In this document: piece by piece, positions 4,289 to 57,963 of the stretch | How the letters are laid out: the number at the start of each line of letters is the position of its first letter | How positions within the stretch are numbered: position 1 is the stretch's first letter | Source: Euglena gracilis | Lineage: Eukaryota | Assembly: GCA_039621445.1 (NCBI GenBank) | Contig: CP154954.1 | Span: forward strand, 39,145,816 to 39,209,815 | Length of the DNA stretch: 64,000 nt | Direction of reading: 5' to 3' | Made by a program: the position numbers and the translations under genes | The notes under the pieces: model-generated | The model's database searches: none | What the model was told of the DNA's origin: nothing | The model's input: only the letters and a program-made list of their open reading frames with translations

Positions 4289-6621
4289 ACGGACGGCTCG
4301 GTTTGCGCTGGAGGAGGGGGAGCCGCGGTGTGGCGTCCAATGGATGGCGAGTCCCTGCTGCTCCACGTCCCAGCCCCGGGCAGCAGCACCCACTGCGAAC
4401 TGCTCGCCCTGGAGCTGGCGCTGAGCTTGCAGCCATCTCAGGTCCTCACCGACTCGCTGTGCGCGCTGCAGCTCCTCCGTGGCTGGGGCTCGATGTCGGA
4501 GACGCGGCGATTATGCTGCCTGGATCGAGTGGAAGTGCGTCGGGTACTGGCAGCAGCCAAGGCGTGCATCCTGCCCGTGGTGCTGGAGAAGGTGCGGGCC
4601 CATGACGACCGCGGGCTCCAGCGTGGACTGCCGAAGGCGGTGGGCAATGATGCTGCCGATGCCCTGGCCAAGCAGGCTGCGGCGGGGACGACCTCACCGT
4701 CTGTCCAGCCCCCGGAGGACGTCCCGATGGTGGGCCCGGCGGGCGACCCGGTTGTGCTGCTGGATGGCAGTGGTTCGGTGGTGCTCAGCGTCCCCTCCTC
4801 TTTCCCGGCGGCGTGGTGGCGACGTTGTCGGCGACTGTGGTCCTCCAAGGGACCTCGCCCCCGGCTGGACATCCTCTTCCCTGTGGGCTTGGACTTCGAC
4901 TGGGCCTCCTCCACCGCCATCTTCCGCCGGCCGGTGGTCCAGCCCGGCGGCTTTGTGCACAAGGTGGCCCCGCGGGTGATCAAGTGGGTCGCCCGTGTAC
5001 GTGGTGGCTGTCTCGCTACTCGGGGGCGTCTGGCACGACACGGCATCGGCGGCGTGGTGTCCCCTGTCTGCCTCTGCTGCGGGGTGGAGGCGGAGGACGA
5101 CGCCCACGTGCTGGCGAGCTATCCGGCCACCGGCGCTGCCCCCCCACTCCCGGCCCTGATGGACGTGTGGGCGCTGGCCTGTGCCACCTCGAATCTCGGC
5201 GTGCCGCTCCCCCCGACGACCTGGCTGACGGCACACTGCTTCCCTCTGCTGGCGGCGCTCATCCCCTCCACTGTGCTGCACCACCACGCCCTTCCCACGG
5301 CGGATGCGGCACGGTTCATGCTGGCGCTGCACATGGCCCTGGCTGAGCGCACGGCTGAACTCCTCCGCCGTCGCGGTGAGCTCATCGCCACCTCCCCTGT
5401 GGTGGCAGCAGCGCCCTCTGACCGACCCCCTGCTGACGACGCGGACCTGTCGACGACGCCAGCAGCAAGCAGTCCCTCCTACGCACTCCCCCCGGGGCTG
5501 CGTCTCAGCGTCCCCGAGCTGCGGTCCCTGGAGCTGCGGCAGCGACAGCAGCACCCTGCTCCGCCGCCCCCTGCAGGCCCCCCGCGGGCCCCCCCGGTGT
5601 GGAAGCCCCCGCCGTCGGTGGCTGCAGTCCCGCTTGGTCGTGCTGCGGGAGCATACGGTGGTCTGCCCTGCCAGCCGCGGCTGCCGGTCGGAGGTTTTTC
5701 TGGATCTCTTTGAGGAGTTGGTGGGGGAGCACTACACCACGACACCTGGCTCCTTGCCAGCTCACCGCCTGTCCGGCTTCGCCAAGGCGTTGGCCAATCT
5801 GGTGCGCGCCGCGGACCTGAGCCCCCCCCTCCAGCGGCACTCCTTGGGTGGCGGTTTGGTGGCTGTATAACCGCACCCCCAGCATGCATTGGGATGCGGA
5901 CCGATGGCGCCAGCGGGCTGAACGCGAACTAGCTGCCCGTCCGGTACCCCGACCAGCGGCAACCATCGAGGAGGTGGACGCAGGCCTTGCTGCTTGGCTG
6001 CGGTATCACCCCCACCTGCGGGCGGCGGCGGTGGAGCAGGGGTTGCCGAGCAAAGCGCTCCTTCTGTTGTGGGAGGTGGACAAGGGCATGCCCTTCCCGT
6101 CCACCGCGGGCAGCTCGGAGTCCGCGCTGGTCTTGGGCTTCACCCGACGCCTGCGTCGCCAGGTGGGCCTGGACGACGAGCTGCGGGATTACATGATCCC
6201 CCGAGATGTGGTCGGCGCTTTGGGACCGGGCCTGCGGGACAGCCACAACCAGCGCTGGCCGGTGCAGATCGTGACGCCCGCCCCCGGGGAGCCAGCTGCC
6301 TGGTACGAGCTGTTCCAGCAACGGTGGAAGGAGTATCTGTCGTCTTTGCGCGTCTCGGCGCCGCCGGAGGAGGCGGATCACCGGCGGGCTCGAGCGGTGG
6401 AGGACCTGGCTCCAGTGAAGAGACGGCGGACAGCCCCTCCGGCACGAGCAGCGTCAGCCAAGCCCCCCGCCCTGCCGAGGTCGTCAACCAGGGCGCGGTC
6501 TCCGGACGCCGAGGCGGATGTGCCCCCACCAAAGCGTCAGTCCACCTTGGACTGTTGGCGGCAACCTGCGAGGGCACCGCTACCCCGTCATGGGCGAGCG
6601 TCTGAGGTTTCACCGACCTGA
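4289..6621 (+). pseudogene. LINE ORF2, RNase H, Cys/His zinc motif and long Pro/Arg-rich C-terminal extension (frameshifted)
   Basis: TDGS at 4289-4300, then CELLAL, LTDSL, KVRAH and GNDAADALAK (RNase H acidic residues); CLCC...EDDAH follows; coding continues in 5848..6621. Confidence 0.85.
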
Positions 6622-19636: not shown

Positions 19637-21499
19637 TCAGAAAGTGTTTATGTTTATGTCTATGTTATTGCGCTTGTTCCACAGCTTCCAATCCTGTTGG
19701 ACGTATCCAACAAAACTTGATGCTGGCTCCCAGGTGTCCTCCTCTGGCCCATACCCTTTCCAGCGAACTTTCTAGTAGTGCACACCCCTGTCGACCTTGT
19801 GGTCTATTATATTATCAACCACAAAGTCGTCCGTTTCAGGTAATCTGGAACGGGGCTTGAAATATAAGCAGGGGATAGCTTTTCCGTCAGGGGGGTTTAG
19901 GTATGGTTTGAAATCGTCCATATGGACGTCCTCAATCCCGTTGGGCAATGCAACTTTATATCGCCCGCTACTACCTAACCTCTCCAAAATTTCGCATGGG
20001 CCGAGCCAAAGAGGGTCTAGCTTGGAAGATTGCATGCGGGTGCAGTTATTCCGTACCCACACGCGGTCACCTGGACTATACATAGGTGTGTTGAAATTTT
20101 GTAAAAACGATTTCCGTTTGTTGGAATGAATTTCTGTGATACGTGATTGAACTTCAGAGCGGAGTTGATTCCACTTCTGCAAACCACGTTTCACAGCTGA
20201 CACTACTTTGGGCGGGTCTCTCCGAGGGGATATCCCCTATGGCCGGAGGGTCTCGTCCGAAAACAATTTTATACGGTGAGTGTGGTAATACCAACCCTGG
20301 CAAGGTATTGATTTAAAATAAACACCAATGAAGAATGGGTATCGAATTCTTACCCGAGTCAGCCAGTGAAAGGCGTAGCATATTGACAACGGATTTCACG
20401 GCTGCCTCAGCTCCACCGTTGCCTTTCGGGCGGTATATAATGGAAAAATGCTGCTCAATACCGAGTAAACCGCATAAAGTTGTGAAAAACCGCAAAGAGA
20501 TCAAGTGATCTTGATCACTCACGATTTCGTTCGGTAAACGCATTAAGCAGATACATTTCTCCAGGAATATGGATGCCAAAATTTGGGCTGTCAACCCTGC
20601 TTTCCGGCATGGAATTGCTACTATGTACCACTCAGCCGACAGACGACAACGAAAACGTAATCGTAAATTTTGTCATCTGATCCTTTGCAAGGTTCGAGTT
20701 CGAGAAAATCCATGCAGAGGGACGTAAAAATGTCCGGTGGTACGGGGAAAAAGTCCATCGTACCAGGGGGGGTACCTGTGCGCGGTTTCACAGCCTGACA
20801 AATTGGGCACCGCTGCGAAATTTGCAAACAGCGCGAATATAAATCTTTTTCACTCAGGGTTGTGCAATATCTGCGACCCACCAGTGAAAGAAGTTTGGGG
20901 GCCCCAGGGTGACCATGGTTGTGATAGCTCAAAATCACATCATCAACCAGGTCTTGGGGTATACAATATTTATAACCAGAATCATTCCGGAAGATAGGTC
21001 GCAATGGTGATAGAGAGTAATTCTCTATGGACTCACCATTACGGAGTCTATTCACAATGGTACTATATACAGGGTCACGCGAATAATCCCATTCGCGGAA
21101 AAATAGGGGGGTAGGAGTTTCCGTACGCGTAATGCGACGGGGTCCGGCAGTGCGTCCACGCCGGCGCCTTCCACGCAATGGTGAAATGGCAATGCTGCAA
21201 TACACCCGGGAAACGGGTAGTGAATCGAGCATGTTGTCCACAGCGTCGGATCGACGTGCGAACTGGTCAGCCCCATGGCTGCCATGAACAGTCGCATCAC
21301 CCTCATCCGGGTCCCCAGGATAATACCAGGGGGCTCGGCTGTGAGGATCCGCCACTTTTTGCGTATGACCTGGGGTATAAACTACCACCAGGTTAAACTG
21401 GCTCAAGAACTCATGCCATCGGCATCGTCTGCCAACTGATGACATGGCCTTGTTCAGGTCCTCGGTATACCAGTGTTGAAGGCTCTCATGATCCGTCAA
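19637..21499 (-). pseudogene. pol: Element A pol, 3' part: end of RNase H, integrase, chromodomain
   Basis: VLTDHESL; H-x3-H...CPIC zinc finger; MDF, IVSDQD, GNGGAE (DDE); WLGPCEI (GPY/F); FVVDNIIDH...Y*KVRWKGYGPEEDTWEP (chromodomain). Confidence 0.93.
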
Positions 21500-21503
21500 C
21501 ACC

Positions 21504-22594
21504 CGTTTCACACCCGTGCTGCCGTGTCCCCCGGCAGCGCTGGGGTGAAGCGGAAACCCCCGCCCCGGGCCAGTTTCCGGCGTAGGATCGTTTTTTGGCT
21601 CCTCGAGCCGACTTGTGTCGGAAATTTTTTCCCATTCTGGCCCCCCCTGTGGCCGAAACTGGGCCATCATTTCCAAGGAGGAACTTCCCAGTGGACCCTC
21701 CCCGACCCCTGAGGGGGGTGTCACTGGGATCTCCAAGGGGGGTGCCTTTGGGGTTTCAACCCCTCCCTGCTCAGCTGAACCAGTGAGAGCCAACACCCCC
21801 CCCCTGGGTGTCATTTCTCACAGTTTCTGGGCCAAAAAGGGGGTTTTGGGGTGAAAAATGGCCTGTGGTTGCCTGAGTTGAAGAGACCCACCCCCCTGCC
21901 CCTTTTCCCACAGATGAGGTGGGGGGAAGACAAACCTCTCCTTCTTCAAATGATTGATTTTGTTGATCTTCCATTGCAATTGAAATTCCAAACTCAATTC
22001 TTGATTGTAATTGGATGTATTTGCCCACAACAAGTACAATGGTGTAAAAGGTAAAGAGGAAAACCCTGTGAAAAGAAAATGATTTTGATGCCCTTGATGG
22101 GCAGTTAAATTTAGGATTGAGTGCGCTGATTCCTAAGCGCTCTCAAATCCCAAATTCTTGCCCATTGCATCAAAATCAACCAACCAAAGTCAAAATCAAG
22201 GTTTCCCCCCTTGATTTTGATAAATTATGCTGAATTCCATCATTATTGAGCTTTGCAAACCCCTGCAAAAACTCCAGGAACTCAGGCGCCAATCTCTTAA
22301 AATTCTGTTCCAAGCGCTTGCAAGCGCTCTCACCAAATCCAACATTTTCCCTTAAAACCAAAGGAGAAATGCATAAAAAGCTTAAATTGTGCTAAATAAA
22401 CTCAAAATAACCCTTTGGGAATACCTAGCATCACTCAATCTCTCTCCTTGCACAACCAAAGCATGGGCGCCCTAGGAGAGGGAATTTTAATGGAAATCTT
22501 TAGAAAGCCTTAAAATTAGAGCAAAACCGCCCTCAAAAGGCCTTCTAAAAGGGAAAAACTCCGCCGCCCGGCGGTCGACCTCAAACGGTCGTCA
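21504..22594 (-). repeat. 3' LTR of element B
   Basis: Near-identical to 33943-35029; starts TGACG on the minus strand directly after the PPT. Confidence 0.95.
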
Positions 22595-22605
22595 CTCCCC
22601 CCCTT
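22595..22605 (-). promoter_or_regulatory. Polypurine tract of element B
   Basis: Minus-strand AAGGGGGGGAG abutting the LTR. Confidence 0.85.
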
Positions 22606-22859
22606 GCGACGAAAGTCGGGGGTTTCACCCCCCCTCCTTCTCGCTTTCCTTGGGATGGGAATGAAAGACACTTTGAATTTTTGCAACGCAATTGCGATAA
22701 CATCGTTCGAGATCGTGCATAAGTGGCGGAACGGTGTGGAGGAATCTATTAGGCCATAGATTCTATTCCACCACACCGAGCCCCCCCCCACGGTTCTCAC
22801 CACCGTGAAAGGAAATGGGGGCCCAACACCACTCAAAAAAATCCTTTCTTGAATGGATA

Positions 22860-23420
22860 AAAATCAGCCCCCCCCCCCACGGTTTTCCCAACCGTTTAGG
22901 GGATGGAGGGTCCATTATCACCAAAAATCCTTTCGGTGATAGATGAAAATCAGCCCCCCCCCCCCCTCGAGGGGAAGGCCTTGGGGAAAAGCTTGTCCCC
23001 CCCCCGGAGAGGTGGGCTTGACTTGCCCCCCCCCCCCCCCGGGGGGAAGGATTTGGGGAAAGGTTTGCCCCCCCCCCGGCGAGAGGTGGGCTTGACTTGC
23101 CCCCCCCCCCCGAGGGGAAAGCCTTGGGCAACCGCCCCCCCCGGCAAAGGGAGGGCTTGACTTGCCCCCCCCCCCCCCGGGGGTTGAAGAAGACAACTCA
23201 CCGGGCACCGCCCCCCCCCCCCCCGATCCTTGCCCCCCCCCCCCCAACCGCCCACCCCCCCATTGGGCCCCCCCCCCCCCCCCGCACCCCCTCTCCCCCT
23301 TTTTTTTTTTTTTTTAACCCCCCCCCCCCCCCCCCTTTTGCCCCTTTTTCCCCCCCCCCGATTTTCGCCCCCCACCTCCCCACCCCCCCCCCATTTTTTT
23401 TCCTTATTGTCAACATTGTT
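22860..23420. repeat. Homopolymer-rich low-complexity tract with ~60-bp imperfect tandem units
   Basis: Recurring GGGCTTGACTTG(C)n...GGGGAA units, then long C and T runs; sequence quality may be poor. Confidence 0.75.
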
Positions 23421-24896
23421 TTCTTTCCTCATCCTTCTTCTGTTTTTCAATTTCTACTCACTTCCCCAATATAATCATCCCAATATTTCCATCATTTTTC
23501 AACTCTTTTTTAGGTTTATTGGTTTTTTGTTTCCACTTTTGTTGTTTCCTTATTTTTATTTCCCGTTTTGTATTTTTGTTTTCCTTTTTTTTCCCAACCC
23601 AACTCCTTCCGCCCTTTTTCTCCACATTGAATTTAGTTGCAATATTTTTTCCTTTATTTGTTCCCTTTTTTTATCCGTCATTTGATTTCTGTGTTTTTTT
23701 CCCCCATTAATAGTTTTTTTCCTTTTTTCCCCCCACCTGAGTTTCACTCCAAATCCACTTAACAAAATTGATTAAAATTTCCCGCCTTGACCTTTCCCTC
23801 ACTTCCAAAGGGGAGTTGTCCGTTGATAAGAGGACCGGGGGAGGGAAAATGGGACCTTTGCCTATTTCCATTTGAAAGAATTCCATGTCCCTTTCACTGA
23901 AACAACCTTTTCGAGGTCAGGATGGCTAGCGGCATGGGTATCGGCAATTACCATCTCCACGTGCTCACTCCACGTGCTCCTCGTACACTGATACCAGAAA
24001 GCAACTCCTTGAAATAGTTTGAACTCCGTCTTCAGTTCATCCAATTCAGAGTCCCAGACTTCAAATTGATAATCCGTCCTGAGTAGGTGAACGAAACGGA
24101 TGGTGATGGTTGCTAGAGCCAAACGCCTCGTCGAAGTTCGCGTGTTGGGCTTCGGCGTCTTCCTTGGCTGCCGGTTTGCCTCCCCTTTCTGTGGTGGCAA
24201 ACAATGCAAAACGATATGATAGGATTCCTTTCCCCAATTGAAAATTTACCAATGTGGCTTAGCCCAGCCAAACCGACAGGGCAATCCCAAAACCACATTG
24301 TCATTACCCCCCCCCTCCAATACTTGGAGGAGGCTGTCAAAAGAACAAACCCTCGGTGGTGCTTCCGGTGGTTTGTCTTCTTTAAGAATTTTTGGTGAAA
24401 CTTCCAAACCGGAATCCACCCACAACAACATAAACAAAACAGGTGGCAATCATGCACTCATTCAACGTTTTGCTTTTGTTGTTGTTGGCAATATCCCTTC
24501 CCGTTCCGGGGTGGGATCCTTTGATTGGAAAACACCCACCTAAAAAAAATAGAATAAGATCCCTGGCTAGTTTCCCCCTAGCCACGAGAATCCTTCATTC
24601 ACCCTTGAAATCCTTTCACGGGAGTTCAATGGAAAATGGCAGAAAAATCAACAGGGGCAATGAAATATCCTCGATTGCCCACACCAGCCTCACCCAAACC
24701 AGGGTGTAGTGGTGAATGAAAACTTCAGGGGGAGAAATAAAAAAATGAAACCAATGACGAGGAAACTCCCGTCATTTTTCCCAGGGCCTCAGCCCTGTGA
24801 TGGTGTCCACCTGCATCTGTGAAGAGGCATAGAGCGGACCTCCCCCTCCCCAGGCAACCACTCCAGGCCCTTTTTCACCAATCCTTTTCCCCCTTT

Positions 24897-25842
24897 TCAG
24901 GTTGCCGTTGCCTTTAAATCCTTAGAGACATCTAACGGCAACCCTTTTCCCAGGTAATACGCTATTACGTCACTATTGTACTCCTGAAAAAAATGTTCCA
25001 CCGGTTCCCAATTCGCCTCCTCAAACCCTTGCCACTTCGTTAAGAAAAACATTTTTCCCTTAACGAACTTGTGGTTTAGGATTTTATCCACTAACCAGGT
25101 ATCTGGGGCACCTTCCGCCTCAGGTACCGTCCGCCGGTGGAAAAACAGGGGGATAGGCTTATCGGATGTGGGGTCCTCCACATATACCTTCAAAGCCTTC
25201 CGATGGGCCTTCATAATATGGCCCGGTTTAACCTCAATCAGGTAGGAATGAATTCCCTCCCTCGCGGTAACCTTGCAAGGGCCCAACCAACGGGAATCCA
25301 ATTTCGTGCCACTATCGGGGGGTCTCAGGTACCACACCAGATTCCCCACCTCCAATGGCTCCCAACCGTCCAAACCACGGTTGGCCCGAGCACATTGCTT
25401 GGCATGCAAATTATTCATTTTGCCAGCTACTACCAAATCAATTTCTCTTTGCCGAGAGAAAAATGATCTGGCATCTTCACAATCCCTTAACGGTTCATAA
25501 GGTAAACCACCCAATGAACGGTGTCGACCGAACAAGATTTGAAATGGGCTGAGGCCACTCTCCCCCGGCGTATCATGAATACGGTCTAGTGCTTGGGGGA
25601 GGGCTTCGACCCAATTCAGCTTGTCCTCAACCTGAATTTTCTTAAGCCGTTCCATTATTTGTTGGCCAGCCCTCTCCACCCTACCATTCGCCTGGTGATG
25701 GTAGGCCTGGGAGTAGGCTTGCCTAATTCCCATCAAGGCACACATTGTCTGCCACCAACCGGCGACAAAATGTGAGCCCAGATCGGAAGTAATAATGGAA
25801 GGGACGCCAAAAGGTCGCCAAGCATGCAACAGCATTTGCTTG
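24897..25842 (-). pseudogene. pol: Element B integrase, C-terminal half plus chromodomain
   Basis: FGVPSIITSDLGSHF, YHHQANGRVER, RWLGPCKV, WLVDKILNH...FLTKWQGFEEANWEP. Confidence 0.94.
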
Positions 25843-27813
25843 AACCCCAGGCCGAGGGATTTCTCCCAGGCGGATGCCCTGGTGGAGAAAGCCCTGGAAA
25901 TTATAAATTATTTTCAGCCAAAGTTGTGGTGGTTGGAGAACCCCCGCACTGGTCTCTTGCGAAATAGGGAGGTGGTGAAAAACCTGCCCTTTATCGACAT
26001 TGATTATTGTCAGTTTTCGGATTGGGGTTATAAAAAGCCCACACGTTTCTGGTGCTGCCCAGCCATTTCACAACTACGGTCGGTGTTGTGTGATGGCGAA
26101 TCATGTCCTAACCTGGTGATGGGGGACAATGGGCAGTTCCGGCACCGTGAATTGTTGGGGGGCAGAAAAATGAAGTTTACCTCCCGACAAAAAGGAAGGA
26201 TACCCCCCCTGGTGATTGATTATCTCCTAAGTGCTGGGGATATTCTGGGGGGCCAGCCCAAAGAAATTTCCCAAAATTCCCAGGATTTTGAGGAATGGGA
26301 AATTCCAGACCGTTGTCGTCATTTGGCCAACACCTTGAAGGTTAATCAGGTGTTGCCCATTGAAAACGAGCTGCAACTTTTGATGTCATCACAGACGTAT
26401 CTCCCTAACGGAGATGCCAGGCAGCTCAGAATTTTGGTTGACACGGGAGCCCAGGTGAACCTGGTCAAAAGGTCCATCGTCCCAAAACATTTGGCCAGGT
26501 CACCGCAAATGCCAATTCAGCTGGTGGCTGCCAACGGCCAATGTGTTTTGGGGGGCGACCAGTGTATTAAGTTGGAGTTGGGTTTTCAACGCAGGGGTAC
26601 GGGGCAGGGGGGCACCCAGGCCTTGTACCTCGAAGGGGAATTCTACCTCGCGGATATTGAGGTAGATGCTATATTATCATTTCCATGGTTAGCCGAACAT
26701 GGTCTGGGTGTGTTCCCACACCATAAGGCTTTGGTTTTTGACAATCCTAATCTGACTTTCTTGTACGGGTGGGATACAAGAAATCAGAAACGGAAATCCC
26801 ATAAGGGGAAGAAAAAACACAATTCACAAAAAAGAATTGGGGTTGTGGTTTCTGACTCCGGTGAATCCCCTGAAAACGCACCAACCACGGAGTCCCTGGA
26901 AAAAGAAAAGGTGTGGTTGGACCTGCAAAAAATGAATTTGCACCTACCCTTGCAAGGCTTTGATATGCAACCAAAATTCCTTGGCAAGAAGGAATTGCAT
27001 ACCATAGCCAAGCATCTCAACGAATCGCCAGCCGAGGACAAGGCAGTGAATGCCATAATCCAGGCTCGCGATTCGGGTGAGAAGGAGGACCCCAGGGTGG
27101 TAGCATTTCGGGATAAAATTTTTCAGGATTATGAAGGGGAGGTGTTGGGTACGGAGGTACCCCCTGACCCTCCCGTACGGGGACCTTATGGTTACGCCCA
27201 GATTCCTCTGAAGGAGGGGGCTGTACCCACAAGGCAAAAACCCTTTGTCTTACATGGTGAAAGATTTGAAGCTCACAAAAAGGTCACACAGGAATGGTGG
27301 GACCGGAAATTTGTTGAGCGATTACCCAAGGGAACAGCTTCGGAATGGCTGTCCGTAACGTTTGTAGTGCCGAAAAAAGGAGGTGAATGGAGGGGAGTGG
27401 TAGACATGCGGGGGCCTAACAGTCAAACTAGGCGTGTGTCCTACCCCCTTCCCGTAATTGAAGACCTCCTGGTAAAACAAGGTGGAAACATGATGTTTTC
27501 CATCTTGGATTTACGGCAGGCTTTCCACCAACAGCCGTTGGATCCGGAAAGCCGGCCCATCACATGTTGTAGTACCCCCCTCGGTCTTTTTCAGTGGAGG
27601 GTTAATGTGATGGGTCTAACAAACGCAAGCCAGCAGTTTCAACAAATGATGGAGGATCGCCTCTTCCCAGTGGGGGACGTGGCTGATCCTTACATCGACG
27701 ACATTTTGATTGGAACTCGAGTGGGTCCTGGTGAGGATTTACTCGCAGCACACGACAAGGATTTGCGAAGAGTCCTTGAAGTTTTACGAAAAGACAGATT
27801 TGTTTGTAGCTGA
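25843..27813 (+). pseudogene. pol: Inverted segment of B: C5-MTase C-half, aspartic protease, reverse transcriptase
   Basis: WWLENP (ENP at 25936), DYCQF...GYKKPTRFW, RIPPLVI; ILVDTGA (DTG at 26440), ILSFPWL; WRGVVDMR, LDLRQAFHQ, MGLTNA, YIDD (27691). Confidence 0.92.
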
Positions 27814-29113
27814 CAAAAGAAAATGCCGTCTTTTCGTAAAAGAAGTTGAGTTTTGTGGCCATGTTCTGGGTGGTGGGGTGAGAAAACCATCCCCTGGAAA
27901 GCTGATGGCCATTGAAAAATGGGAGCTACCCCAAACAATCACGGGTCTACGTGCTTTTTTGGGGTTCACAAATTATTACAGCTCATATGTGAAGGATTAC
28001 GCCCACATTGTCGCTTGCCTTCAAGATAAGCTCAAAGTTTCACGAGTGGACGGCAAGAAGGGTTCCAAGAAAAGGATTTCTTGGGAGCCATCCGACATTG
28101 AGGCATTTGAAAAAATTAAATCACTGTTGTGCAGTGAATTAATTTTACAACACGTTAAGCCAGACAAACCATTTGTTTTAAGAGTGGATGCCAGCCAGTA
28201 TGCGGTTGGTGCCACCCTTGAACAATTGGTTGGGGAGGATAGGGCTCCTACTCCAGAAGATGTACGGGCCAAGCGTACTGTGCCTGTCGCCTTCATGAGT
28301 AGGAAGCTAACGGGCAGCCAAAGAAACTGGGTACCTAGGGAACAGGAGACTTATGCCATAATCCTAGCCTTACAAAAGTGGGAATCATGGATTGGGCTGC
28401 AGCCCGTCCTGGTTCTCACGGACCACAAGGCTCTAGAATCTTGGGCTAGAGAGGTTCTAGACACGCCAAGTGGTCCCATTGGGAGAAGGGCTAGGTGGCA
28501 TCAGATTTTATCAAAATTTGACTTGTCGGTTGGGTATATCCCGGGGCGGGAGAATACCATAGCCGATTTGTTGTCAAGATGGGCTTACCCGGCCTCCCAA
28601 GCCTTGAAGGACATTTCAAGGCATGGGTCAGCCCTTGACACCGAGGAAATGAGGGAAATCATTCAAACAGAAAAAATGGAGGAAGCCGAATGTATGTGGC
28701 TACGGTTGGTGGACCAACCAACCACAGCCAACACATACATTCGTGGAGTCACCACACGGGGTGGTGCTACCACGGGGTCCGGGGACGCGGGTGGACGGTG
28801 CACACGACCGGGGGATAGGAAGTCAGAACCACTTGGAGGAACAAAACCCCAGGGTATGGGTTCAACCTCCACCCCCAAGGGAGAAAAAGGAAAACATGTT
28901 TCATTCTCAACTCGGGTTGACGAGTTTGGGAATGAGACAAGTCTTGTGGAGGAGGTCCAAGAGCCAAGGGGGGAGCATTTTCCATTGACACCCACTTCTA
29001 TACCAGCTTCGCCAACAATGCCAACCCCTGAACCTGCTGCTGCGGCTACCACTGAGGTACCTGGGGCAGACCGAGAATCACCTGTGTTGTCTTCAGGTGG
29101 TTTGAGTGGTTAG
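27710..29113 (+). pseudogene. pol: Inverted segment of B: RT connection, RNase H and linker
   Basis: VEFCGHV, LRAFLGFTNYY, VDASQYAVGATL, PVAFMSRKL, EQETYAI, VLTDHKAL, ENTIADLLSR. Confidence 0.93.
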
Positions 29114-29163
29114 GGGGGGAAGCCACTTCTACAACCGATTCCTCACCCATCCCCCCTGGTTCT

Positions 29164-29681
29164 GTGTGGGATTTATCCTGGAAGGAGGAATATTTAAAAT
29201 GTCCCCGTTGGTCACCAATTTTTCAAGCTACCCAGGATTCAAAGGTGCCGTGGCCTGAAAATATAAAGGTTTTTGGTGACAAAATGTTTTTCGAGGAGAG
29301 GCTTTGTGTGCCCAAATCTCTCCAAGAAAAACTCATTCGGGATCACCACTCATACCAAGGGCATGTGGGATTCCCAAGGCTATGGGAATGCATGTCCCTT
29401 AGGTATGATTGGGCTGATTCCTCACTCGCTCGAGATTTTGCTAAAGGAGTCATGGGCCTTTGTGGGACTTGCCAAGCGTGCCGAAGGCCGGCGAGTCTTA
29501 AGGGTTTAGTGGAATCTACACCCATACCCCCAGCCGTAATGTATTCGATGGCCCTTGACATGTTTAGCATGCCTCTCGTGGAGTGGGAAGGGAATTCTTA
29601 CGACTCCATGCTTGTGTGTGTGGATCGTCACTCCGGTTGGATAGTGGCGATCCCCCACCTAGCAAAAGGATTTACGGGAGC
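29164..29681 (+). pseudogene. pol: Inverted segment of B: integrase zinc finger and start of catalytic core
   Basis: HH...GHVG...CGTCQ, MALDMF, VCVDRHSGWIVAIP. Confidence 0.92.
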
Positions 29682-30304
29682 CAGGGGGGACTTGCGGCAA
29701 TAACCTCAAAAAATCCAACCGGGTATCGCCTGTAGTCCCAGGTCAAAATGTCTGTGTGGGGGTGGAAGTCCGTCCAAGGAGCATTTTCAATTGACAAAAC
29801 TTCATACCCCCGTTCTGCCAACCGCCTCCCTACTGAACCCGTGCCAGCGAATAAGTCTAATGCCTGAGGTCGCTGGGCTGATGGTGGGGGGTTGGGCTGT
29901 GGCAGGTTTGTATGCAAAATGGGAACCCTTGAACATTTCCCTTCCCTCCAGGAGTAACGAGTCCGATTCAAAGATCTGGGGGGCTGATCCAAAGAATGTT
30001 TTTCACCACACCCTGAATCAGCCATAAAATCCTGTACAACCCAGTTTTTTGAATCAGAAATATTTACACCGTTTTCCTCACAGGGGGGAGAGACACGGCC
30101 ATGGGCAGCCCCCCCCCTTCTCAAACTGCCCCTGGCCCCTCTATTGGGCCCCAGGGGGAGAAGAGGTGGGCCCACCCCCCTTTGACCATGCACCCCCCTT
30201 GCCTGAGGAATTTCGCTGAGTGGCTGGCTGCCCTTTACCCTTGGGCTGCCCCTTGCCTTTTCCATTATTTTGCCAAAATTCCTTAGATTTAGCAAGGGCC
30301 TCAC
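29682..30304 (-). pseudogene. Element B post-Gag linker plus N-half of a C5-cytosine DNA methyltransferase
   Basis: LDLFAGTG (motif I FxGxG, 29837-29860), EVLSIE, DILTWD, IAASPP (motif IV, cut at the expected Cys codon). Confidence 0.88.
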
Positions 30305-30309
30305 TCAGC

Positions 30310-33300
30310 GGTTTATCACACTCATAGAAATAATATCAACCCTCCCCACAGTTGAAGCATGGGTATGGCGACCTGCCCCGACCCGATGCCTGCGGGGTCC
30401 AGGTCTGCCCTCCCTTGCCTTGCCGGGCTGGGGGTGCTGGACTTTGGGTTCGCGACCATGAAGCTGCACCTGGCCGCGAAGACGAAGAAGGGGACCTGCC
30501 CCGCTGGGCTGGCTGGGCTGGCCCCTTATCTCCCTTTGGAGCTGGCTGTGGGGCAGATTTTGAGGTGTGACCCTGCCCCCCGGCCGCTGGTGCTGAAACG
30601 GATGTTGGGGACACCGGGGGGGTCTGGCCTTTTTCCAACACCTGTATTTTCCCCGAGCCTTTTGTTGTCGATTTGCTGAATAATCTGGGAAAATGGTGCT
30701 GATTCAAAGCCAAATCCTGCTTCTCCCGAAGAGCCAACCTGCCCTCGGCAAAAGCAAACATTTCCTCAACGGTCATTAGTTGTTCCACCAATTCGGCGTT
30801 GAGGAAATTTTCCATTCCCTGCAATTTCCTTCCATTTACGGCTGTTAATTTCAGTGCCTCCTCCGAAGAACTGAAATAAATAAGGCAAATGGCACCAGGG
30901 TTTTTGATAACCACTTTCCGTGGATCAATACCCCCTGTGATCTGGCTCACACTCCTTTTAATCCCATCCACCGTGGGATTTGGTATCCCTGTGAGCCTGA
31001 CAATGGGTTGTTTACGGGCTCGGTTATCCTCCTCTTCTATGCAAAACTTGCTTAAAAAAGGAGGAATTCTTTCCAAAAATAATCTCCGAGCCTCCCCAGC
31101 TGTGGCATCCTTTACATGGTGCCAGGCACTGCAAAATTTAATCCAAAATTCTTGCAGATCAGCCCGGGTAATTTTTCCTTCGTTTACCATAGTTACCTCC
31201 TGCCATATTTTCCGAGCCGTCAGCCCCTTACTCGAGGCATAACGGTTCTGGAATTGGGCTAATATGGTGGGGTAACTTAATTTAGCTCCATTCAACCGAT
31301 AGAGCCTGATTTCCTCCCTTAATCTGGGTCCTAAACATGCCTCAAAAACCTGCAGCTTTTGCAAATCAGAATACGGTTTCCCTGATGTCAACCTATCCCA
31401 GTAAAGATTCCAATCTACTTCAAAATCTTGCCAGGAAATGCTGCCCGCTTCATCAAAATAGGGCTTAGCACCTCCCTGCAAAATTTCAAAAGCTACTGGG
31501 TCACCGATAAAAGGAAAACCCAACCCGTTACCTGGGTTGGCTGCAGCCCCCCCTGTCCCGATGGGCCTAATCGAGAAAGCAGGGGCTGCAGGACATGCAC
31601 ACAATGACACAGAAGAAACCACTGCCGTATCTTGTGTGTCCTCCAAAACAAATCCCCCCTCAATAACTAAGGGAGGGGAAATGTTTGAACTTGCAGATTT
31701 ATTCTGAGAAATAATCTGATCTGAAAATGCTGGGTCAGCACTGGGCACCGTGCTGGCCAGTGAGCTGGAAGGCTGCCCCAGGGGCTGCTGCTGTCCAGCC
31801 GACGGCAGGCCCAGCCCCCTTGGCAGCCCGTGAGCAGGCTGCGACTGGCCTGCTGGCTGGCCAGGCTGCTGGGGCTGGACGACGGGCTGCTGGGCCAGCT
31901 GCTGCCCAGGCTGTGGCAGCTCCACTGGGTGTAGGGGCTGCTGGCTGCCCTGCCGCAGCCACCACATGTCAGAAATTTTCTGCAAAACTCCTCTCGGTTC
32001 TGCAGTTGGGTGTACGGGTCCATTTTTTTGTAAGTCCTGCAACACTTTCTGCAACTCGAAAGTGTTCCCCCCAACTTTTGCAAGTCCCTGCCTTAATTCC
32101 TCCACCAGCCCACCAAATTTTTTCTCCTGGGAAAAAATCTGCTGATGAACACTCTGAAAATTCTGCTGACAATCCGTCAACAATTTTTGCATTTCTGAGT
32201 GTCGTTTCCCTACTTCATCTGAAATATTCTGGTGCAGTTTCTGAATACCACCACCAAAACCATGGAGGGCCGTATTCATTGCTGAATTTTGCTCACCCAG
32301 CTGGCGAACATAATCAGCGAACTGCTGGAGCTGCTGAGCCTGGCCCTGTACCGTACTACGCAGCGATACCAGGTCAGCCTGAACTTCAACGATTTTGGCA
32401 GCGACAACGGCCAGCTCCTGGAGAGTTTCTGCCTCCCCCCCCTGAGCTGGCTGGGCGGCTTTAAAATTCTCAGCAAACCGCTGAAAATTTTCAAGCACGA
32501 GATCCTTAATTGGAAAGGCAGCCACCTGATTTTGCACTTGTTTCAAAATTTCCTGTGGCAGGTTGTCCAAAATTCGTAAAAATTCCTGCCTCAGGGCCAA
32601 AAACTGATCACGGCTCGAAGAAAACTGCTGGGCCAGTTTTTCCTCAAAACTTTTTTCCTGCCCAACAAAAAGTTCAAGTGCCTGTGCGTCAATTTTTTTG
32701 CACAGAAATTTGCACCTGGGCTTCACATTTTTTCTCAAAAATTTCAGAAATATGGAGGCAGTCAGCCCTGGCCGTTTCTTCGATTCGTGCAGCCATGTGC
32801 TCCACCAGGTGGATGTCGACTGCGGGGGGTTGTTGCTGCTGCTGCTGCTGTTGCAGAACCCACTCTTCGTTGGCTTTTTCCAAAGCCAAAACCCGAAAAT
32901 TCAGGTGCTGCACAGTCCACTGGAGGTCTCTGTTACTTTGTAAAAATTGCCGCCAGGGGTCTTCAAATCCCTGATTTTGTGAACCCCCCCTGGGGGTGGC
33001 TTCAGAACTTTCATAGGCTGGGGGTTGGACCTCCTCCTCACCCCCCTCGATGAAAATATGAGGAGGCTGGGGGGCTGCAGCAGCTGCTGGCTGACCGTGA
33101 TCAACCTCACGGTGCAGCCGTTTTTGCTGAACTTCATCACTGCCTGGTGATGAAGCCGGTGTTCGGGGTCGTCGAGCAGAAGTAGAGCTGGGCTGGTCCT
33201 TCCGGTTTTCCTCTGCCTGCTCGACTTCTGCTCTGACCCGTTCGCCGCTGTCCCAGTTATTATTATCGTTTAAGCCCAGCACATTGACCTGTGCTTGCTT

Positions 33301-34411
33301 TTCAAAGAAAACTGGGCTGGGGTTATCACCCCCCTGCCCTGCCGAGGCACTTCCCGTTTCCTTCGCCAGCCCATCTACCTGGGATGGTTGGGAAAACTGC
33401 AAAAGTGCCACCGGCTCTTGGGCTGGTGTTGAAGAAACTGGTTGAGCTGGAGGCAAAGGCAATGCAAAAGCGGGTAATGAGGCAGCTTCCTTAAAATTTT
33501 GTTTTTTTTTTTTTTTTTTCCCTCTTTTTTTTTTTTTTTTTTCTTTTTTTTTTCTTTTTCTTTCTTTTTTTTTTTTTTTTGTTTTTTTTTTTTTTCTACC
33601 CTGTAAAAGTCTGGGAGAGGTTGCAACTCAGGCAGCACAAAACCGTACCCCATATTTTGCAAAGGCAAAACCCCTGAAAAAGGCTCTGGAAAACACGGTT
33701 GGTTGGAAATGACAACCTGGCCATCCCCACCCTGAAATTCCAACATCTGTCCCATATTTGTGGGGGTTCTGAGTTCAGATAAACTGGTTTCGGGTCCCAA
33801 CTCCCTGTTCCCCGAAACTCCAATCGTCAGATTTGCCAACTGAGATTGGGCCATTGGCTGATCATCAAAGAAAACATTCTGAGCAGGGATTTCATACCCA
33901 AAATTTCCGACAGAAGGCTGAAGGATCAACCTCTGCTTACCATTTTTCACACCCGTGCTGCTGTGTCCCCCGGCAGCGCTGGGGTGAAGCGGAAACCCCC
34001 GCCCCGGGCCAGTTTCCGGCGTAGGATCGTTTTTTGGCTCCTCGAGCCGACTTGTGTCGGAAATTTTTTCCCATTCTGGCCCCCCCTGTGGCCGAAACTG
34101 GGCCATCATTTCCAACGAGGAACTTCCCAGTGGACCCTCCCCGACCCCTGAGGGGGGTGTCACTGGGATCTCCAAGGGGGGTGCCTTTGGGGTTTCAACC
34201 CCTCCCTGCTCAGCTGAACCAGTGAGAGCCAACACCCCCCCTGGGTGTCATTTCTCACAGTTTCTGGGCCAAAAAGGGGGTTTTGGGGTGAAAAATGGCC
34301 TGTGGTTGCCTGAGTTGAAGAGACCCACCCCCCTGCCCCTTTTCCCACAGATGAGGTGGGGGGAAGACAAACCTCTCCTTCTTCAAATGATTGATTTTGT
34401 TGATCTTCCAT
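30310..34411 (-). pseudogene. gag: Element B gag-like ORF (coiled coil, capsid-like region, degenerate CCHC knuckle), frameshifted
   Basis: ORFs 34235-33375, 33462-32689 and 32738-30336 tile upstream of pol; ends CFNCGEG...YFYEC. Confidence 0.8.
33923..33942 (-). promoter_or_regulatory. Primer-binding site of element B (initiator tRNA-Met-like)
   Basis: Minus-strand TGGTAAGCAGAGGTTGATCC directly after the 5' LTR. Confidence 0.8.
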
Positions 34412-35029
34412 TGCAATTGAAATTCCAAACTCAATTCTTGATTGTAATTGGATGTATTTGCCCACAACAAGTACAATGGTGTAAAAGGTAAAGAGGAAAA
34501 CCCTGTGAAAAGAAAATGATTTTGATGCCCTTGATGGGCAGTTAAATTTAGGATTGAGTGCGCTGATTCCTAAGCGCTCTCAAATCCCAAATTCTTGCCC
34601 ATTGCATCAAAATCAACCAACCAAAGTCAAAATCAAGGTGTCCCCCCTTGATTTTGATAAATTATGCTGAATTCCATCATTATTGAGCTTTGCAAACCCC
34701 TGCAAAAACTCCAGGAACTCAGGCGCCAATCTCTTAAAATTCTGTTCCAAGCGCTTGCAAGCGCTCTCACTAAATCCAACATTTTCCCTCAAAACCAAAG
34801 GAGAAATGCATAAAAAGCTTAAATTGTGCTAAAAACCCAAAATCACCCTTTGGGAATACCTAGCATCACTCAATCTCTCTCCTTGCACAACCAAACCATG
34901 GGCGCCCTGGGAGAGGGAATTTTAATGGAAATCTTTAGAAAGCCTTAAAATTAGAGCAAAACCGCCCTCAAAAGGCCTTCTAAAAGGGAAAAACTCCGCC
35001 GCCCGGCGGTCGACCTCAAACGGTCGTCA
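33943..35029 (-). repeat. 5' LTR of element B
   Basis: Near-identical to 21504-22594; flanked by the TSD and the PBS. Confidence 0.95.
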
Positions 35030-35033
35030 CACC

Positions 35034-57200: not shown

Positions 57201-57963
57201 CGACGCTGTGTGGCAATGGGGCCGAGGCAGGGTTCAAAGGCTGTTCGCTCTGAGCTGGGTCACCCCCAATGAGGTCCAGAAGGAGCTGTTGTAGATTCCG
57301 GCCACCTTGCGAAGAGGTTTCCAAGAGTGGGGCAAGAGTGGGTGGGACCGAGGCAGTTGCCATCAAGAAGCCGACAGCCCTCGCTGGATCCTCGCTGAAG
57401 TCAATTTCAATCTGTGGGGGTACTGCGGGGCCTGGGTTTGGCTGAATGTCACCACAGGACAAAATTCCTTCCCCGCGCCCCAAGCGACTGTGGTGACCGG
57501 TGCAAGTGCTGGGGTTTTGCCGCTTCTTGGTGGGCATGCGTTTGGGCCAGCTATCCCTTTTCCTTTGAAACTCCAGTTCCGGGGGTCTGCAGGAAATGGG
57601 CGGTTGGGGCTCTGGGGTTATTCCGGTTGCGTGGAGGAAAGTGTGTCTGGCAGCTTTTGGGGAAACAGAGGCTTTGACTTTCTGTGTCGCTTGGGTGGCT
57701 TTCAGCAAATTGGGCCTGGCAGTTTTGAGCAAAATGGAATCTCCAGGGGTTTGCAGAGCACTTTTTGGTTCCCAAAACTGCAGAGTGGGGTTTTGGGGAA
57801 CAAGGGAACAGTATCTGACAGTTTTGGGGCTCCATGTCAGCAGAACCAGCTTGTGACCATGGGGGTTTTGGGTGCTTGGTGGGTTGGTGGGTCGGGGTGT
57901 GGATGCTGCAACTTGAAATGAGTGCAAAAGTTTTTCCCTTGTCAGGTGAGCAAGTGCACACAA
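54203..57963 (-). pseudogene. Single ORF encoding RT-RLE (one frameshift near 55290)
   Basis: SPGPSGLRPDHL, RPISAGECLRRL, QFGVG, LDFANAFN, GVQQGDPCGP, WYLDD, LKVLG; CPRC...HHLVC, RRH, RPGD...IDVTV, EEDKIAKY. Confidence 0.92.

What the first reader, a model, noticed from the sequence alone, without database searches (positions are those of the whole stretch)
25843..29865. Chromovirus B encodes a C5-cytosine DNA methyltransferase between Gag and protease, hidden by an inversion
Seen: the minus strand at 29865-29682 gives motif I (LDLFAGTG), II/III-like segments and ASPP. The plus strand at 25843-26235 gives PRDFSQADALV, ENP (motif VI), DYCQF..GYKKPTRFW (VIII-like) and RIPP (X-like), in frame with PR and RT. 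Undoing the inversion gives Gag-CCHC / C5-MTase / PR / RT / RH / IN / chromodomain. Established: C5-MTases captured by retrotransposons are known from dinoflagellates (Symbiodinium) and charophyte algae. Inference: this may be an independent or undescribed case in a euglenid-like host, and a protease-released, particle-packaged MTase could methylate new cDNA or the insertion site.
Basis: partly seen in the sequence, partly recalled or inferred. Interest (0 to 1): 0.9.

Follow-up and report, generated by a model that had tools for sequence, protein, structure and literature searches.

The report
Broken copy of methylase-carrying retrotransposon
This is a dead, internally inverted copy of a jumping gene whose family carries its own small DNA cytosine-methylase domain; similar elements were first reported in a 2026 preprint, so it is a new variant and not a new kind.

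Summary
Window 21.5-35.0 kb is one LTR retrotransposon (chromovirus) on the minus strand. It has 1090-bp LTRs that are 98.8% alike and a 4-5 bp target duplication, and it is nested in the RNase H of another element. A block at 25843-29682/3 is inverted. This splits a methyltransferase domain into an N-half (29872..29684, minus, ending ASPP) and a C-half (25843-26235, plus, in frame with PR and RT).

Re-inverting restores the domain order but not the gene. 22 letters, including the rest of the catalytic Cys codon, and 7 letters of integrase are missing, and the copy has further frame breaks.

Intact relatives are abundant: 1192 cluster representatives at E<=1e-3. In them the domain sits in one ORF with PR-RT-RH-IN-chromodomain. 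The Pro-Cys motif is present in 131 of 133, the motif VI Glu in 173 of 176, and the motif VIII Arg in 184 of 188. Contigs of other copies from public runs join the two halves directly.

The domain is a ~205-residue "mini" C5-MTase. It aligns end to end with ~220-residue phage C5-methylases (hhalign 99.5%) and only marginally with Pfam PF00145.

A May 2026 preprint already describes Euglena/Cymbomonas LTR elements with DNMT + DAM + chromodomain. This element lacks DAM. Fold and activity were not tested, and the host was not identified.

The parts
21506..22595 (-). 3' LTR of element B (1090 bp)
   Evidence: BLAST of the two ends gives 21506-22595 against 33945-35030, 98.8% identity with 9 mismatches and 3 gap openings.
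21499..21503 (-). Downstream copy of the target-site duplication, GGTG(T) on the element strand. The upstream copy lies at 35029-35033.
   Evidence: The flanks were read. The uninterrupted sister element C (about 51636-51645) shows the empty site with one copy of the motif.
22596..22605 (-). Polypurine tract directly upstream of the 3' LTR
   Evidence: The element strand reads AAGGGGGGGA next to the LTR start. The label is by position only.
22606..24896 (-). Long non-coding 3' region with a C-homopolymer minisatellite (22953-23178, unit 72 bp, 3.2 copies)
   Evidence: There was no Pfam-bearing ORF among the ORFs that I scanned.
24897..25842 (-). Integrase C-terminal part (rve 25698-25838) and chromodomain (24996-25094). 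It lies outside the inverted block.
   Evidence: Pfam rve E 1.3e-4 (22.7 bits, cut-off 32.6) and Chromo E 1.6e-4 (21.9 bits, cut-off 25.1). P0055 residues 2109-2413 and P0152 residues 1419-1724 map here.
25843..26262 (+). C-half of the methyltransferase domain: after-motif-IV loop, ENP (motif VI), DYC...KPTR (motif VIII-like), C..C..H segment, RIPP. It is the first part of the inverted block.
   Evidence: Own family HMM positions 70-204 at E 4e-61. It is 84% identical to P0151. Translation, alignment A2.
26437..26451 (+). Aspartic protease active site (VDTGA)
   Evidence: It is in the same ORF (25717..27813) as the MTase C-half.
27367..27792 (+). Reverse transcriptase (YIDD at 27691). The frame breaks near 27799.
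   Evidence: Pfam RVT_1 E 4e-14. Contigs of other copies lack 4 letters at 27799 (table 4).
28160..28519 (+). RNase H
   Evidence: Pfam RT_RNaseH E 2.5e-24.
29056..29683 (+). Integrase N-terminal part (H2C2 zinc domain at 29308-29418, first Asp of the core). It is the end of the inverted block.
   Evidence: Pfam Integrase_H2C2 E 1.3e-4 (22.5 bits, cut-off 25.5). P0055 residues 1923-2106 map to 29143-29685. Other copies have one more G behind 29112.
29684..29872 (-). N-half of the methyltransferase domain: motif I DLFAGTG through to ASPP, cut before the catalytic Cys
   Evidence: Own family HMM positions 3-65 at E 2.5e-19. Translation. P0151 residues 1-43 are 81% identical.
30318..32900 (-). 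Gag-like ORF ending in a CCHC-type knuckle (about 30318-30359) that carries an in-frame stop
   Evidence: 854-aa ORF 30336..32900, with no Pfam family above cut-off. The knuckle reads CFNCGEG*Y....C.
33926..33942 (-). Candidate primer-binding site (starts TGG, 2 nt after the 5' LTR)
   Evidence: Read directly. It was not matched to any tRNA.
33945..35030 (-). 5' LTR of element B

Best explanation
Window ~21504-35029 is one copy, on the minus strand, of a high-copy Ty3/gypsy chromovirus. Its family encodes a ~205-residue 'mini' C5-cytosine DNA methyltransferase domain between the Gag nucleocapsid knuckle and the protease, in the same reading frame as PR-RT-RH-IN-chromodomain.

This particular copy is dead. 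A two-break inversion of 25843-29682/3 cut the catalytic loop of the MTase and the integrase core. It lost 22 and 7 letters at the two joints. One joint shows 2 nt of microhomology and the other is blunt, which is the signature of end-joining repair. The copy also has a stop in the Gag knuckle and two small indels in pol.

Shown: the anatomy, the homology, the conservation of the catalytic residues across the family, and the existence of uninverted copies with the Cys.

Inferred: in intact copies the domain is made as part of Gag-Pol, is packaged or released by PR, and methylates cytosine C5 in DNA. The most likely substrate is the element's own new cDNA or provirus. This would give it the methylated state that is the default in a heavily CpG-methylated host.
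For: Anatomy:
- The LTR pair is 98.8% alike.
- The domain order comes from Pfam and from mapping of P0151, P0152 and P0055.

Family:
- phmmer with the C-half against 1.84 billion representatives found 1192 hits at E<=1e-3, 530 at <=1e-10 and 86 at <=1e-30.
- A word-indexed search found 45 longer proteins. The best is P0151, at 84% identity, with an intact ASPPC...NPRPRDF.

MTase identity:
- PF00145 reaches its 22-bit cut-off in 6 of 11 intact relatives scanned.
- A profile of 27 relatives hits DNMT1 chains best (E 2.9e-6) over motifs I, IV and VI.
- PHROG phrog_757 'DNA methyltransferase' scores E 8e-11 to 4e-15 in 5 of 5 relatives.
- hhalign gives 99.5% / E 1.9e-22 over 194 columns to Bacillus phage Bcp1 'C-5 cytosine-specific DNA methylase I'. 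That protein itself scores 33.8 bits on PF00145.
- hhalign gives 99.5% to HFTV1 gp60 and 99.2% to a third phage protein.

Selection, among the 188 stored relatives:
- Pro-Cys: 127 and 131 of the 133 that cover the column.
- Motif VI Glu: 173 of 176.
- KPTR Arg: 184 of 188.

Other copies:
- Contigs of X1, X13 and X14 join 25842-25844 to 29680-29683 on opposite strands.
- One X14 contig carries 22 extra letters between the MTase halves and another carries 7 between the integrase halves.
- Loose ends at 29682 (5 contigs in X1, 1 in X20) read on in frame through a Cys codon.
Against: - Neither half of the window copy reaches any PF00145 score at E<=0.1. The only hit is a 15-bit MethyltransfD12 match on the SAM motif.
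- In relatives, PF00145 matches only profile positions ~2-118 of 324, and 5 of 11 fall under the cut-off.
- NCBIfam dcm scores 16-19 bits against a cut-off of 100.65.
- No solved structure matches the C-half or the phage minis by single-sequence search.
- The fold was never tested. Structure prediction was not accepting jobs.
- No activity data exist for this mini class, as far as my searches show.
- No listed contig confirms the window's own inverted joints. Only a part of 4400+ pieces was shown.
- The self-methylation idea rests on position in the polyprotein and on analogy with de Mendoza 2018 (PMC5890265, section 10 read). There, only the DIRS-Dnmt3 domains gave activity in yeast, and the Gypsy and LINE ones did not.
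Confidence: 0.75

Rival explanations
1. The inversion is an assembly artefact, and the real locus carries a collinear and possibly intact element.
For: No contig shown runs through 25842/25843 or 29682/29683 in the window's configuration. All listed joints at these places are of the uninverted form. The family is very repetitive (4053 contigs laid in X1), which invites mis-joins.
Against: Both joints fall at exact single positions. They lose 22 and 7 letters and share 2 nt at one side. That looks like double-strand-break repair and not like a flipped contig. The copy carries independent lesions as well: a stop in the Gag knuckle, 4 extra letters at 27799, and 1 missing at 29112. Only a small part of the pieces was listed, so absence is not shown.
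Confidence: 0.1
2. The domain is a methyltransferase fold but not a DNA C5-cytosine enzyme. It might act on RNA (the element's genomic RNA or the tRNA primer, as DNMT2 acts on tRNA) or serve only as a DNA/SAM-binding module.
For: The part after motif VIII is only ~65 residues, far shorter than the target-recognition region of canonical enzymes. PF00145 covers only the first third of its profile. The phage minis it resembles have no tested activity that I could find (four listed papers, titles and abstract starts only).
Against: Pro-Cys, the motif VI Glu and the motif VIII Arg are kept in 96-99% of relatives. An inactive module would not need them. The closest annotated relatives are phage DNA methylases sitting among DNA-metabolism genes. 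The 2026 preprint treats the same kind of domain as a DNMT.
Confidence: 0.13
3. On origin: the module derives from a cellular eukaryotic DNMT (the preprint places EpiLTR DNMTs as sister to DNMT4), and not from a phage-type mini methylase.
For: Preprint section 8 (read) gives 100% bootstrap for Euglena + Cymbomonas EpiLTR DNMTs as sister to DNMT4 in a tree of eukaryotic DNMT families. The best solved match here is a eukaryotic enzyme, DNMT1.
Against: The match to DNMT1 covers about 100 columns at E 3e-6. Phage minis of the same length align over 136-194 columns at E 1e-20 to 1e-22. The atlas's nearest clusters are 188-288-aa viral PF00145 proteins, with scores of 0.94. By its Methods, that tree used representative eukaryotic sequences, so a phage branch could not have shown. 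I could not build the joint tree because I had no reference DNMT sequences.
Confidence: 0.3

Closest known systems
EpiLTRs of Euglena gracilis and Cymbomonas tetramitiformis (bioRxiv 10.64898/2026.05.21.726589, May 2026)
   Same: Both are Ty3/gypsy-type LTR elements with a chromodomain and a cytosine-methyltransferase domain in the polyprotein. Relatives of the window's domain also carry a DAM domain: 29 of 188 stored proteins, for example P0168, P0176 and P0177. The window also holds DAM-carrying chromoviruses next to this one.
   Different: Element B has no DAM domain in any frame. Neither do its closest long relatives P0151, P0152, P0162 and P0055. The MTase lies between Gag and PR. In Cymbomonas it is at the 3' end of pol, and the Euglena arrangement is not detailed in the text I read. 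That screen started from DAM (section 13), so DNMT-only elements were outside it. Whether the domains are orthologous could not be checked, because the sequences and supplements were not available.
KnitGypsy-Dnmt3 of Klebsormidium nitens (de Mendoza et al. 2018, PMC5890265)
   Same: It is a Gypsy LTR element with a C5-MTase in the Pol polyprotein, with key catalytic residues kept and copies under purifying selection (section 9 read).
   Different: That domain is a Dnmt3 relative of normal size. Here no DNMT3 chain appears among 54 solved matches at E<=1, and the domain is a ~205-residue mini form closest to phage enzymes.
SymbioLINE-Dnmt and SymbioDIRS-Dnmt3 of Symbiodinium (same paper)
   Same: They are retrotransposon-borne C5-MTases in very high copy number in a genome with near-default CG methylation. 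Self-methylation of cDNA was proposed, and the DIRS-Dnmt3 domains methylate CG de novo in yeast (sections 6 and 10 read).
   Different: The element classes differ (LINE and DIRS, with no integrase or chromodomain), and so do the DNMT lineages.
Phage 'mini' C5-methylases (PHROG phrog_757; Bacillus phage Bcp1 gp133, Haloferax tailed virus 1 gp60, Xanthomonas phage Xoo-sp15 gp48)
   Same: They have the same length (218-256 aa) and the same motif string: DLFAGT, ASPxC..YS, ENPRG, YCxY...KPT..W, a terminal RIP..L. hhalign gives 99.2-99.5%.
   Different: They are free-standing genes of DNA viruses of bacteria and archaea, not polyprotein domains. Identity is only 27-31%. Their activity is annotated, not tested.
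DAM-LTRs / DIRS Dam-like methyltransferase domain
   Same: It is another prokaryote-like DNA methyltransferase carried in retrotransposon polyproteins. It is present in elements A and C of this very window (PF05869, 20 bits).
   Different: It has a different fold class and target (adenine N6), and it is absent from element B.

Membership tests
C5-cytosine DNA methyltransferase superfamily (Pfam PF00145) | Motif I, the SAM-binding F-x-G-x-G (motif name recalled) | tested here: met
   The window reads DLFAGTG. In relatives, F is present in 90 of 94 and the first G in 92 of 94 that cover the column.
C5-cytosine DNA methyltransferase superfamily (Pfam PF00145) | Motif IV, the catalytic Pro-Cys, in this copy | tested here: not met
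   The N-half ends ...ASPP at the inversion joint, and the next codon reads Trp. Eight codons present in P0151 are missing.
C5-cytosine DNA methyltransferase superfamily (Pfam PF00145) | Motif IV, the catalytic Pro-Cys, in the family | tested here: met
   P is present in 127 of 133 and C in 131 of 133. It is invariant in the 27-sequence alignment A1. Loose ends of other copies read through a Cys codon.
C5-cytosine DNA methyltransferase superfamily (Pfam PF00145) | Motif VI Glu (ENV) and motif VIII Arg (motif names recalled) | tested here: met
   The window has LENPRTG and KKPTRFW. E is present in 173 of 176 and R in 184 of 188. ENP aligns with the ENV of DNMT1.
C5-cytosine DNA methyltransferase superfamily (Pfam PF00145) | Score at or above Pfam's gathering cut-off (22 bits) | tested here: inconclusive
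   The window halves give no hit. Among intact relatives, 22.3, 26.7, 27.2, 25.3, 26.7 and 28.2 pass, and 21.1, 13.5, 19.0, 21.0 and 19.1 fail. That is 6 of 11, always over profile positions ~2-118 of 324 only.
C5-cytosine DNA methyltransferase superfamily (Pfam PF00145) | C5-MTase fold with the catalytic loop next to the SAM pocket | not tested
   Structure prediction accepted no jobs, so no model and no fold search.
C5-cytosine DNA methyltransferase superfamily (Pfam PF00145) | Transfer of methyl to C5 of cytosine in DNA | not testable with these tools
   This needs expression and a 5mC readout.
Phage mini C5-methylase class (phrog_757) | Significant end-to-end profile match | tested here: met
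   phrog_757 scores E 8e-11 to 4e-15 in 5 of 5 relatives, covering up to profile positions 8-194 of 247. hhalign to Bcp1 gp133 covers 194 columns at E 1.9e-22.
EpiLTR (preprint definition: LTR element with DAM + DNMT + chromodomain) | DAM (PF05869) domain in the same element | tested here: not met
   There is no PF05869 hit in six ORFs of element B. My own DAM HMM gives no hit at E<=10 in any frame of 21506-35030, whereas it hits elements A and C. Note that A and C were in the seed of that HMM.
EpiLTR (preprint definition: LTR element with DAM + DNMT + chromodomain) | DNMT domain and chromodomain | tested here: met
   For the DNMT, see the rows above. Chromo scores 21.9 bits here, under the cut-off of 25.1, and 27.6-37.5 bits in P0055, P0162, P0165, P0168 and P0176.
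Chromovirus (Ty3/gypsy LTR retrotransposon with chromodomain) | LTR pair, target duplication, PR-RT-RH-IN order, chromodomain after IN | tested here: met
   The order holds once the inverted block is read in the element's sense.
Retrotransposon Dnmt3 captures (KnitGypsy-Dnmt3, SymbioDIRS-Dnmt3) | The domain branches within Dnmt3 | tested here: inconclusive
   No tree with reference DNMTs could be built. No DNMT3 chain appears among the 54 solved matches at E<=1, while DNMT1 leads.

The most novel reading that the evidence does not exclude
The cytosine-methylase module of these elements is a phage-type mini C5-MTase. It moves as a cassette among chromoviruses of euglenid-like protists, giving DNMT-only, DAM-only and dual forms in one genome.

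The DNMT-only lineage marks its own DNA. In this window it is CpG-depleted throughout (observed/expected 0.43-0.52). The DAM-only element that it sits inside, and that element's sister copy, are not depleted (0.92-0.98). This suggests two opposite, element-encoded epigenetic strategies side by side.
Probability: 0.2. Interest if true: 0.75.

Novelty: new variant of a known kind. Interest (0 to 1): 0.5.

Why it matters
Retrotransposons that carry their own DNA methylase turn the usual host-silences-transposon picture around.

The known cases are Dnmt3-type captures (2018) and the dual DAM+DNMT 'EpiLTRs' (2026 preprint). This locus adds three things:
- A DNMT-only chromovirus lineage with the enzyme between Gag and protease.
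- Evidence that the module is a very small, phage-like C5-methylase with no solved structure.
- Evidence that the family is very large in environmental sequence, with more than a thousand 50%-identity clusters.

If active, a ~205-residue C5-methylase would be among the smallest known and a handy tool. The contrast in CpG content with neighbouring DAM elements gives a directly testable prediction for long-read methylomes.

The copy itself is a wreck and has no function.

Tried and rejected
- Whole-genome search for sister copies: no genome is held.
- tblastn of all parts against the window: no second copy of the MTase here.
- Rfam and tRNA scans of the window, in the hope of identifying the host: 0 matches each.
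- Structure prediction: not accepted three times, so no fold search.
- PDB single-sequence searches with the C-half and two phage minis: 0 matches.
- NCBIfam: only dcm at 16-19 bits, far under its cut-off.
- Metagenome contig scan for close DNA relatives for a dN/dS test: 5 loci at 44-58% identity. Two of them are 99% alike, which is too far or too close, so no dN/dS was done.
- CpG depletion as a mark of DNMT carriage: not general. Element D (53.4-64 kb, RT only, no MTase found) has 0.49. The DNMT-carrying loci L004 and L005 have 0.93-0.94, against 0.50-0.67 for L001-L003.
- CpG-to-TpG/CpA share of differences: 31 of 169 between A and C, and 8 of the 40 listed (of 190) between B and contigs. 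The enrichments of about 1.5x and 3.2x over site share are too small a sample to separate the two.
- Run X20 (leaf-litter metatranscriptome, share 0.22; 19 contigs laid, 3 at 99%+) and the 'RNA?' runs hold the family, but an RNA library does not show transcription. I draw no habitat or expression claim from them.
- Parts without contig cover in X20 (26270-27039): no conclusion.
- Literature on HFTV1 gp60 activity: nothing found in the four papers listed (listing only).
- Chance resemblance and 'host gene trapped by a nested insertion' were considered and rejected, on the E-values and on the recurrent MT-PR and MT-DAM-RT single ORFs.

Full report
WHAT IS THERE

ORF listing and Pfam show retroelement domains on both strands between 24.9 and 32.9 kb.
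- On the minus strand: a Gag-like ORF (32900..30336) ending in a CCHC-type knuckle, a short ORF (30304..29672) ending ...DLFAGTGSV...VIAASPP, and an integrase-core/chromodomain ORF (25907..24897).
- On the plus strand, between them: one ORF that starts with ...NPRPRDFSQADALV...WWLENPRTG...DYCQFSDWGYKKPTRFW...RIPPLVIDYLL. It runs into the protease (VDTGA 26437-26451) and RT (YIDD 27691), followed by RNase H and the integrase zinc domain.

A 1090-bp direct repeat (21506-22595 / 33945-35030, 98.8% identity) brackets all of this.
- The flanks outside the repeat are the two halves of the RNase H of another chromovirus (element A).
- Its reading frame closes perfectly once the insert and one copy of GGTG(T) are removed.
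- Element C (48732-53267, plus strand) is a 96-97% copy of A. It shows the empty site.

So element B is a bona fide nested LTR-retrotransposon insertion on the minus strand. It has a polypurine tract next to its 3' LTR and a TGG-starting candidate primer site after its 5' LTR.

THE INVERSION

Three relatives (P0151, P0152, P0055) map to the window in the order minus 298xx..29690, plus 258xx..29685, minus 25841..249xx.

Public-run contigs of other copies show the uninverted form.
- 'Opposite strands' joints between 25842-25844 and 29680-29683 appear in X1 (4 contigs), X13 (2) and X14 (2).
- One 398-nt X14 contig lies with positions 1-158 on minus 29839..29682 and positions 181-398 on plus 25843..26060. 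It therefore holds 22 letters that the window copy lacks.
- Another runs plus 28280-29683, and then, after 7 letters, on minus from 25842.
- Loose ends at 29682 (5 contigs in X1, 1 in X20) read on in frame through a Cys codon.

From, the joint at 29682/29683 shares 2 nt between the two partners, and the joint at 25842/25843 is blunt.

Loss of 22 and 7 letters with little or no microhomology is what end-joining of two breaks gives. I take the inversion as real, but no listed contig shows the window's own joints, and only a fraction of the pieces was printed. An assembly error keeps about one chance in ten.

Re-inverting would restore the order but not the frame. The closest relative P0151 has eight residues, beginning with the catalytic Cys, between ASPP and NPRP. 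These are simply absent here.

The copy has further damage:
- an in-frame stop inside the Gag knuckle;
- four extra letters near 27799;
- one missing letter near 29112, relative to the contigs.

It is a dead copy.

IS IT A C5-METHYLTRANSFERASE?

The window halves alone give no PF00145 hit. The domain is, however, part of a very large family.
- phmmer with the C-half against 1.84 billion representatives gives 1192 hits at E<=1e-3 and 86 at <=1e-30.
- Intact members read ALDLFSGTGSV...IAASPPC.EYS.AKTT.PRD...WWIENPR.G...DYCQFSDWGY.KPTRFWG...C....C.N......H...LGG......KGRIP..L.DYLL.
- PF00145 reaches its cut-off in 6 of 11 such proteins, always over the first third of the profile only.
- A profile of 27 members hits DNMT1 chains best (E 2.9e-6). 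It pairs DLFSG with DVFSG, PPC.EYS with PPCQGFS, and ENPR with ENVR.

The links to a class of short phage enzymes are much stronger.
- PHROG phrog_757 scores E down to 4e-15.
- 32 phage records match by tblastn at 27-31% identity.
- hhalign gives 99.5% (E 1.9e-22, 194 columns, the whole domain) to Bacillus phage Bcp1 'C-5 cytosine-specific DNA methylase I'. That protein has 221 aa and itself scores 33.8 bits on PF00145.
- hhalign gives 99.5% to Haloferax tailed virus 1 gp60 (218 aa, 41.1 bits on PF00145) and 99.2% to a third phage protein.
- The protein atlas's nearest clusters are 188-288-aa viral PF00145 proteins, with scores of 0.94. This is a lead only.

Across 188 stored relatives the catalytic residues are kept:
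- Pro 127 of 133;
- Cys 131 of 133;
- motif VI Glu 173 of 176;
- motif VIII-like Arg 184 of 188.

I conclude that the family domain is a member of the C5-MTase superfamily, of a ~205-residue 'mini' type.

Fold and activity are untested. The structure tool accepted no job, and no solved structure exists for the mini class by sequence search.

ARCHITECTURE IN RELATIVES

- P0055 (2513 aa) is a single ORF: Gag-like region / MTase / PR / RT / RH / IN / chromodomain.
- P0152 and P0162 have MTase-PR-RT-RH-IN-chromo without DAM.
- P0165, P0168 and P0176 have MTase directly followed by a Dam-like domain.
- P0177 has PR-DAM-MTase-RT.
- With my own HMMs, 29 of 188 stored proteins carry both domains. Many of the rest are fragments, so this is a floor.

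I built a quick maximum-likelihood tree of 104 near-complete domains plus the window's C-half.
- The window groups with P0151 (support 99), inside a loosely supported set of MT-then-PR proteins.
- DAM-after and DAM-before forms make their own partly supported clusters.
- Labels need 31 changes, against 40.8 when shuffled.
- Sixty rows could not be classified.

Element B itself has no DAM in any frame. Elements A and C of the same window have a Dam-like domain upstream of RT (PF05869 at 20 bits, under its cut-off; my own HMM was seeded with A and C themselves).

WHAT IS KNOWN

De Mendoza et al. 2018 (PMC5890265; abstract and sections 6, 9 and 10 read) described SymbioLINE-Dnmt, SymbioDIRS-Dnmt3 and KnitGypsy-Dnmt3. 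They showed de novo CG methylation in yeast only for the DIRS-Dnmt3 domains.

The preprint 10.64898/2026.05.21.726589 (May 2026; abstract, sections 7, 8, 10 and 13 and all nine passages with 'DNMT' read) reports the following.
- There are 'EpiLTRs' in Euglena gracilis and Cymbomonas tetramitiformis: LTR elements with a chromodomain, DAM and DNMT.
- The DNMT is placed as sister to DNMT4.
- E. gracilis has 5mC as near-default at CG.
- The text warns of nested insertions in that genome.

Its screen began from DAM domains (section 13), and the text I read mentions no DNMT-only LTR element. The supplements were closed and may say more.

Four further searches found no other paper that describes a cytosine methyltransferase encoded in a chromovirus or other LTR element.

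I could not verify the host: no genome is held, there is no RNA gene in the window, and run names are coded.

HOW IT LIKELY WORKS

Shown: the domain is translated, in intact copies, as part of the Gag-Pol polyprotein upstream of PR or RT, and its catalytic residues are under constraint.

Inferred: it enters the particle with Gag-Pol, is freed by PR or stays fused to the nucleocapsid, and methylates cytosines of the new cDNA or provirus. In a host where unmethylated CpG is the exception, arriving already methylated could hide a new insertion or temper its expression. I give the DNA-C5 activity about two in three, and the self-marking role about one in three.

A hint comes from CpG observed/expected ratios.
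- The ratio is 0.43-0.52 over all parts of B.
- It is 0.92-0.98 in A and C, although A has sat at this locus longer than B.

The hint is weak.
- Element D (RT only) is also depleted, at 0.49.
- Two of the five metagenomic DNMT-carrying loci are not depleted.
- The spectrum of differences does not separate the families.

VERDICT

The element is a new variant (DNMT-only, with the MTase between Gag and PR) of a kind of element first reported in 2026. The phage-like mini nature of the enzyme and the size of the family in environmental data are the parts worth following.

Noticed in passing
window 35031-~42400 and 19712-21505 (minus); 48732-53267 (plus): Elements A and C are 96-97% identical copies of another chromovirus that carries a Dam-like adenine-methylase domain upstream of RT (PF05869, 20 bits, under its cut-off). 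A is split by the insertion of B, and C gives the empty site.
   Followed up: partly
window 21506-35030 versus 35031-42400, 19712-21505 and 48700-53400: CpG observed/expected is 0.43-0.52 throughout the DNMT-carrying element B. It is 0.92-0.98 in the DAM-carrying elements A and C. Element D (53.4-64 kb) is also low at 0.49 without any methylase found.
   Followed up: partly
window 8440-12990 and 42930-46650: These are two long arrays of a degenerate internal repeat (76-84% self-similarity over kilobases, GpC-rich). Each is bordered by a 313-bp repeat that is 98.7% alike (12990-13301 / 42619-42931).
   Followed up: no
window 53268-53626 and 63654-64000: A 359-bp direct repeat (95%) brackets a region with a 940-aa RT-bearing ORF (55270..58092, minus). 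It is probably a further LTR element (D), inserted right at the end of C and running off the window. Eight other ORFs there have no Pfam match.
   Followed up: partly
window 1-6600: This is a 70% G+C block, unlike the rest of the window (48-60%). It has open frames on both strands and an RT ORF (2661..4424, RVT_1 E 3e-22).
   Followed up: no
alignment A1 (P0005 numbering C189, C216, C221, H234); window 26xxx C-half: Three invariant Cys and a nearly invariant His lie in and after the motif VIII region of the mini methylase. The two middle Cys are partly shared with phage Bcp1 gp133. They may form a zinc site that replaces a normal target-recognition domain.
   Followed up: no
window 22953-23178 and 33497-33595: The 3' non-coding region of B holds a C-homopolymer minisatellite (72-bp unit, 3.2 copies). 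The leader between the 5' LTR and Gag holds a ~100-nt T-rich tract (A-rich on the element strand).
   Followed up: no
proteins P0165, P0168, P0176 versus P0177, P0091, P0184: Among metagenomic relatives the Dam-like domain sits either directly after the C5-methylase or before it. The two arrangements form separate clusters in the domain tree, which suggests more than one assembly of the dual form.
   Followed up: partly
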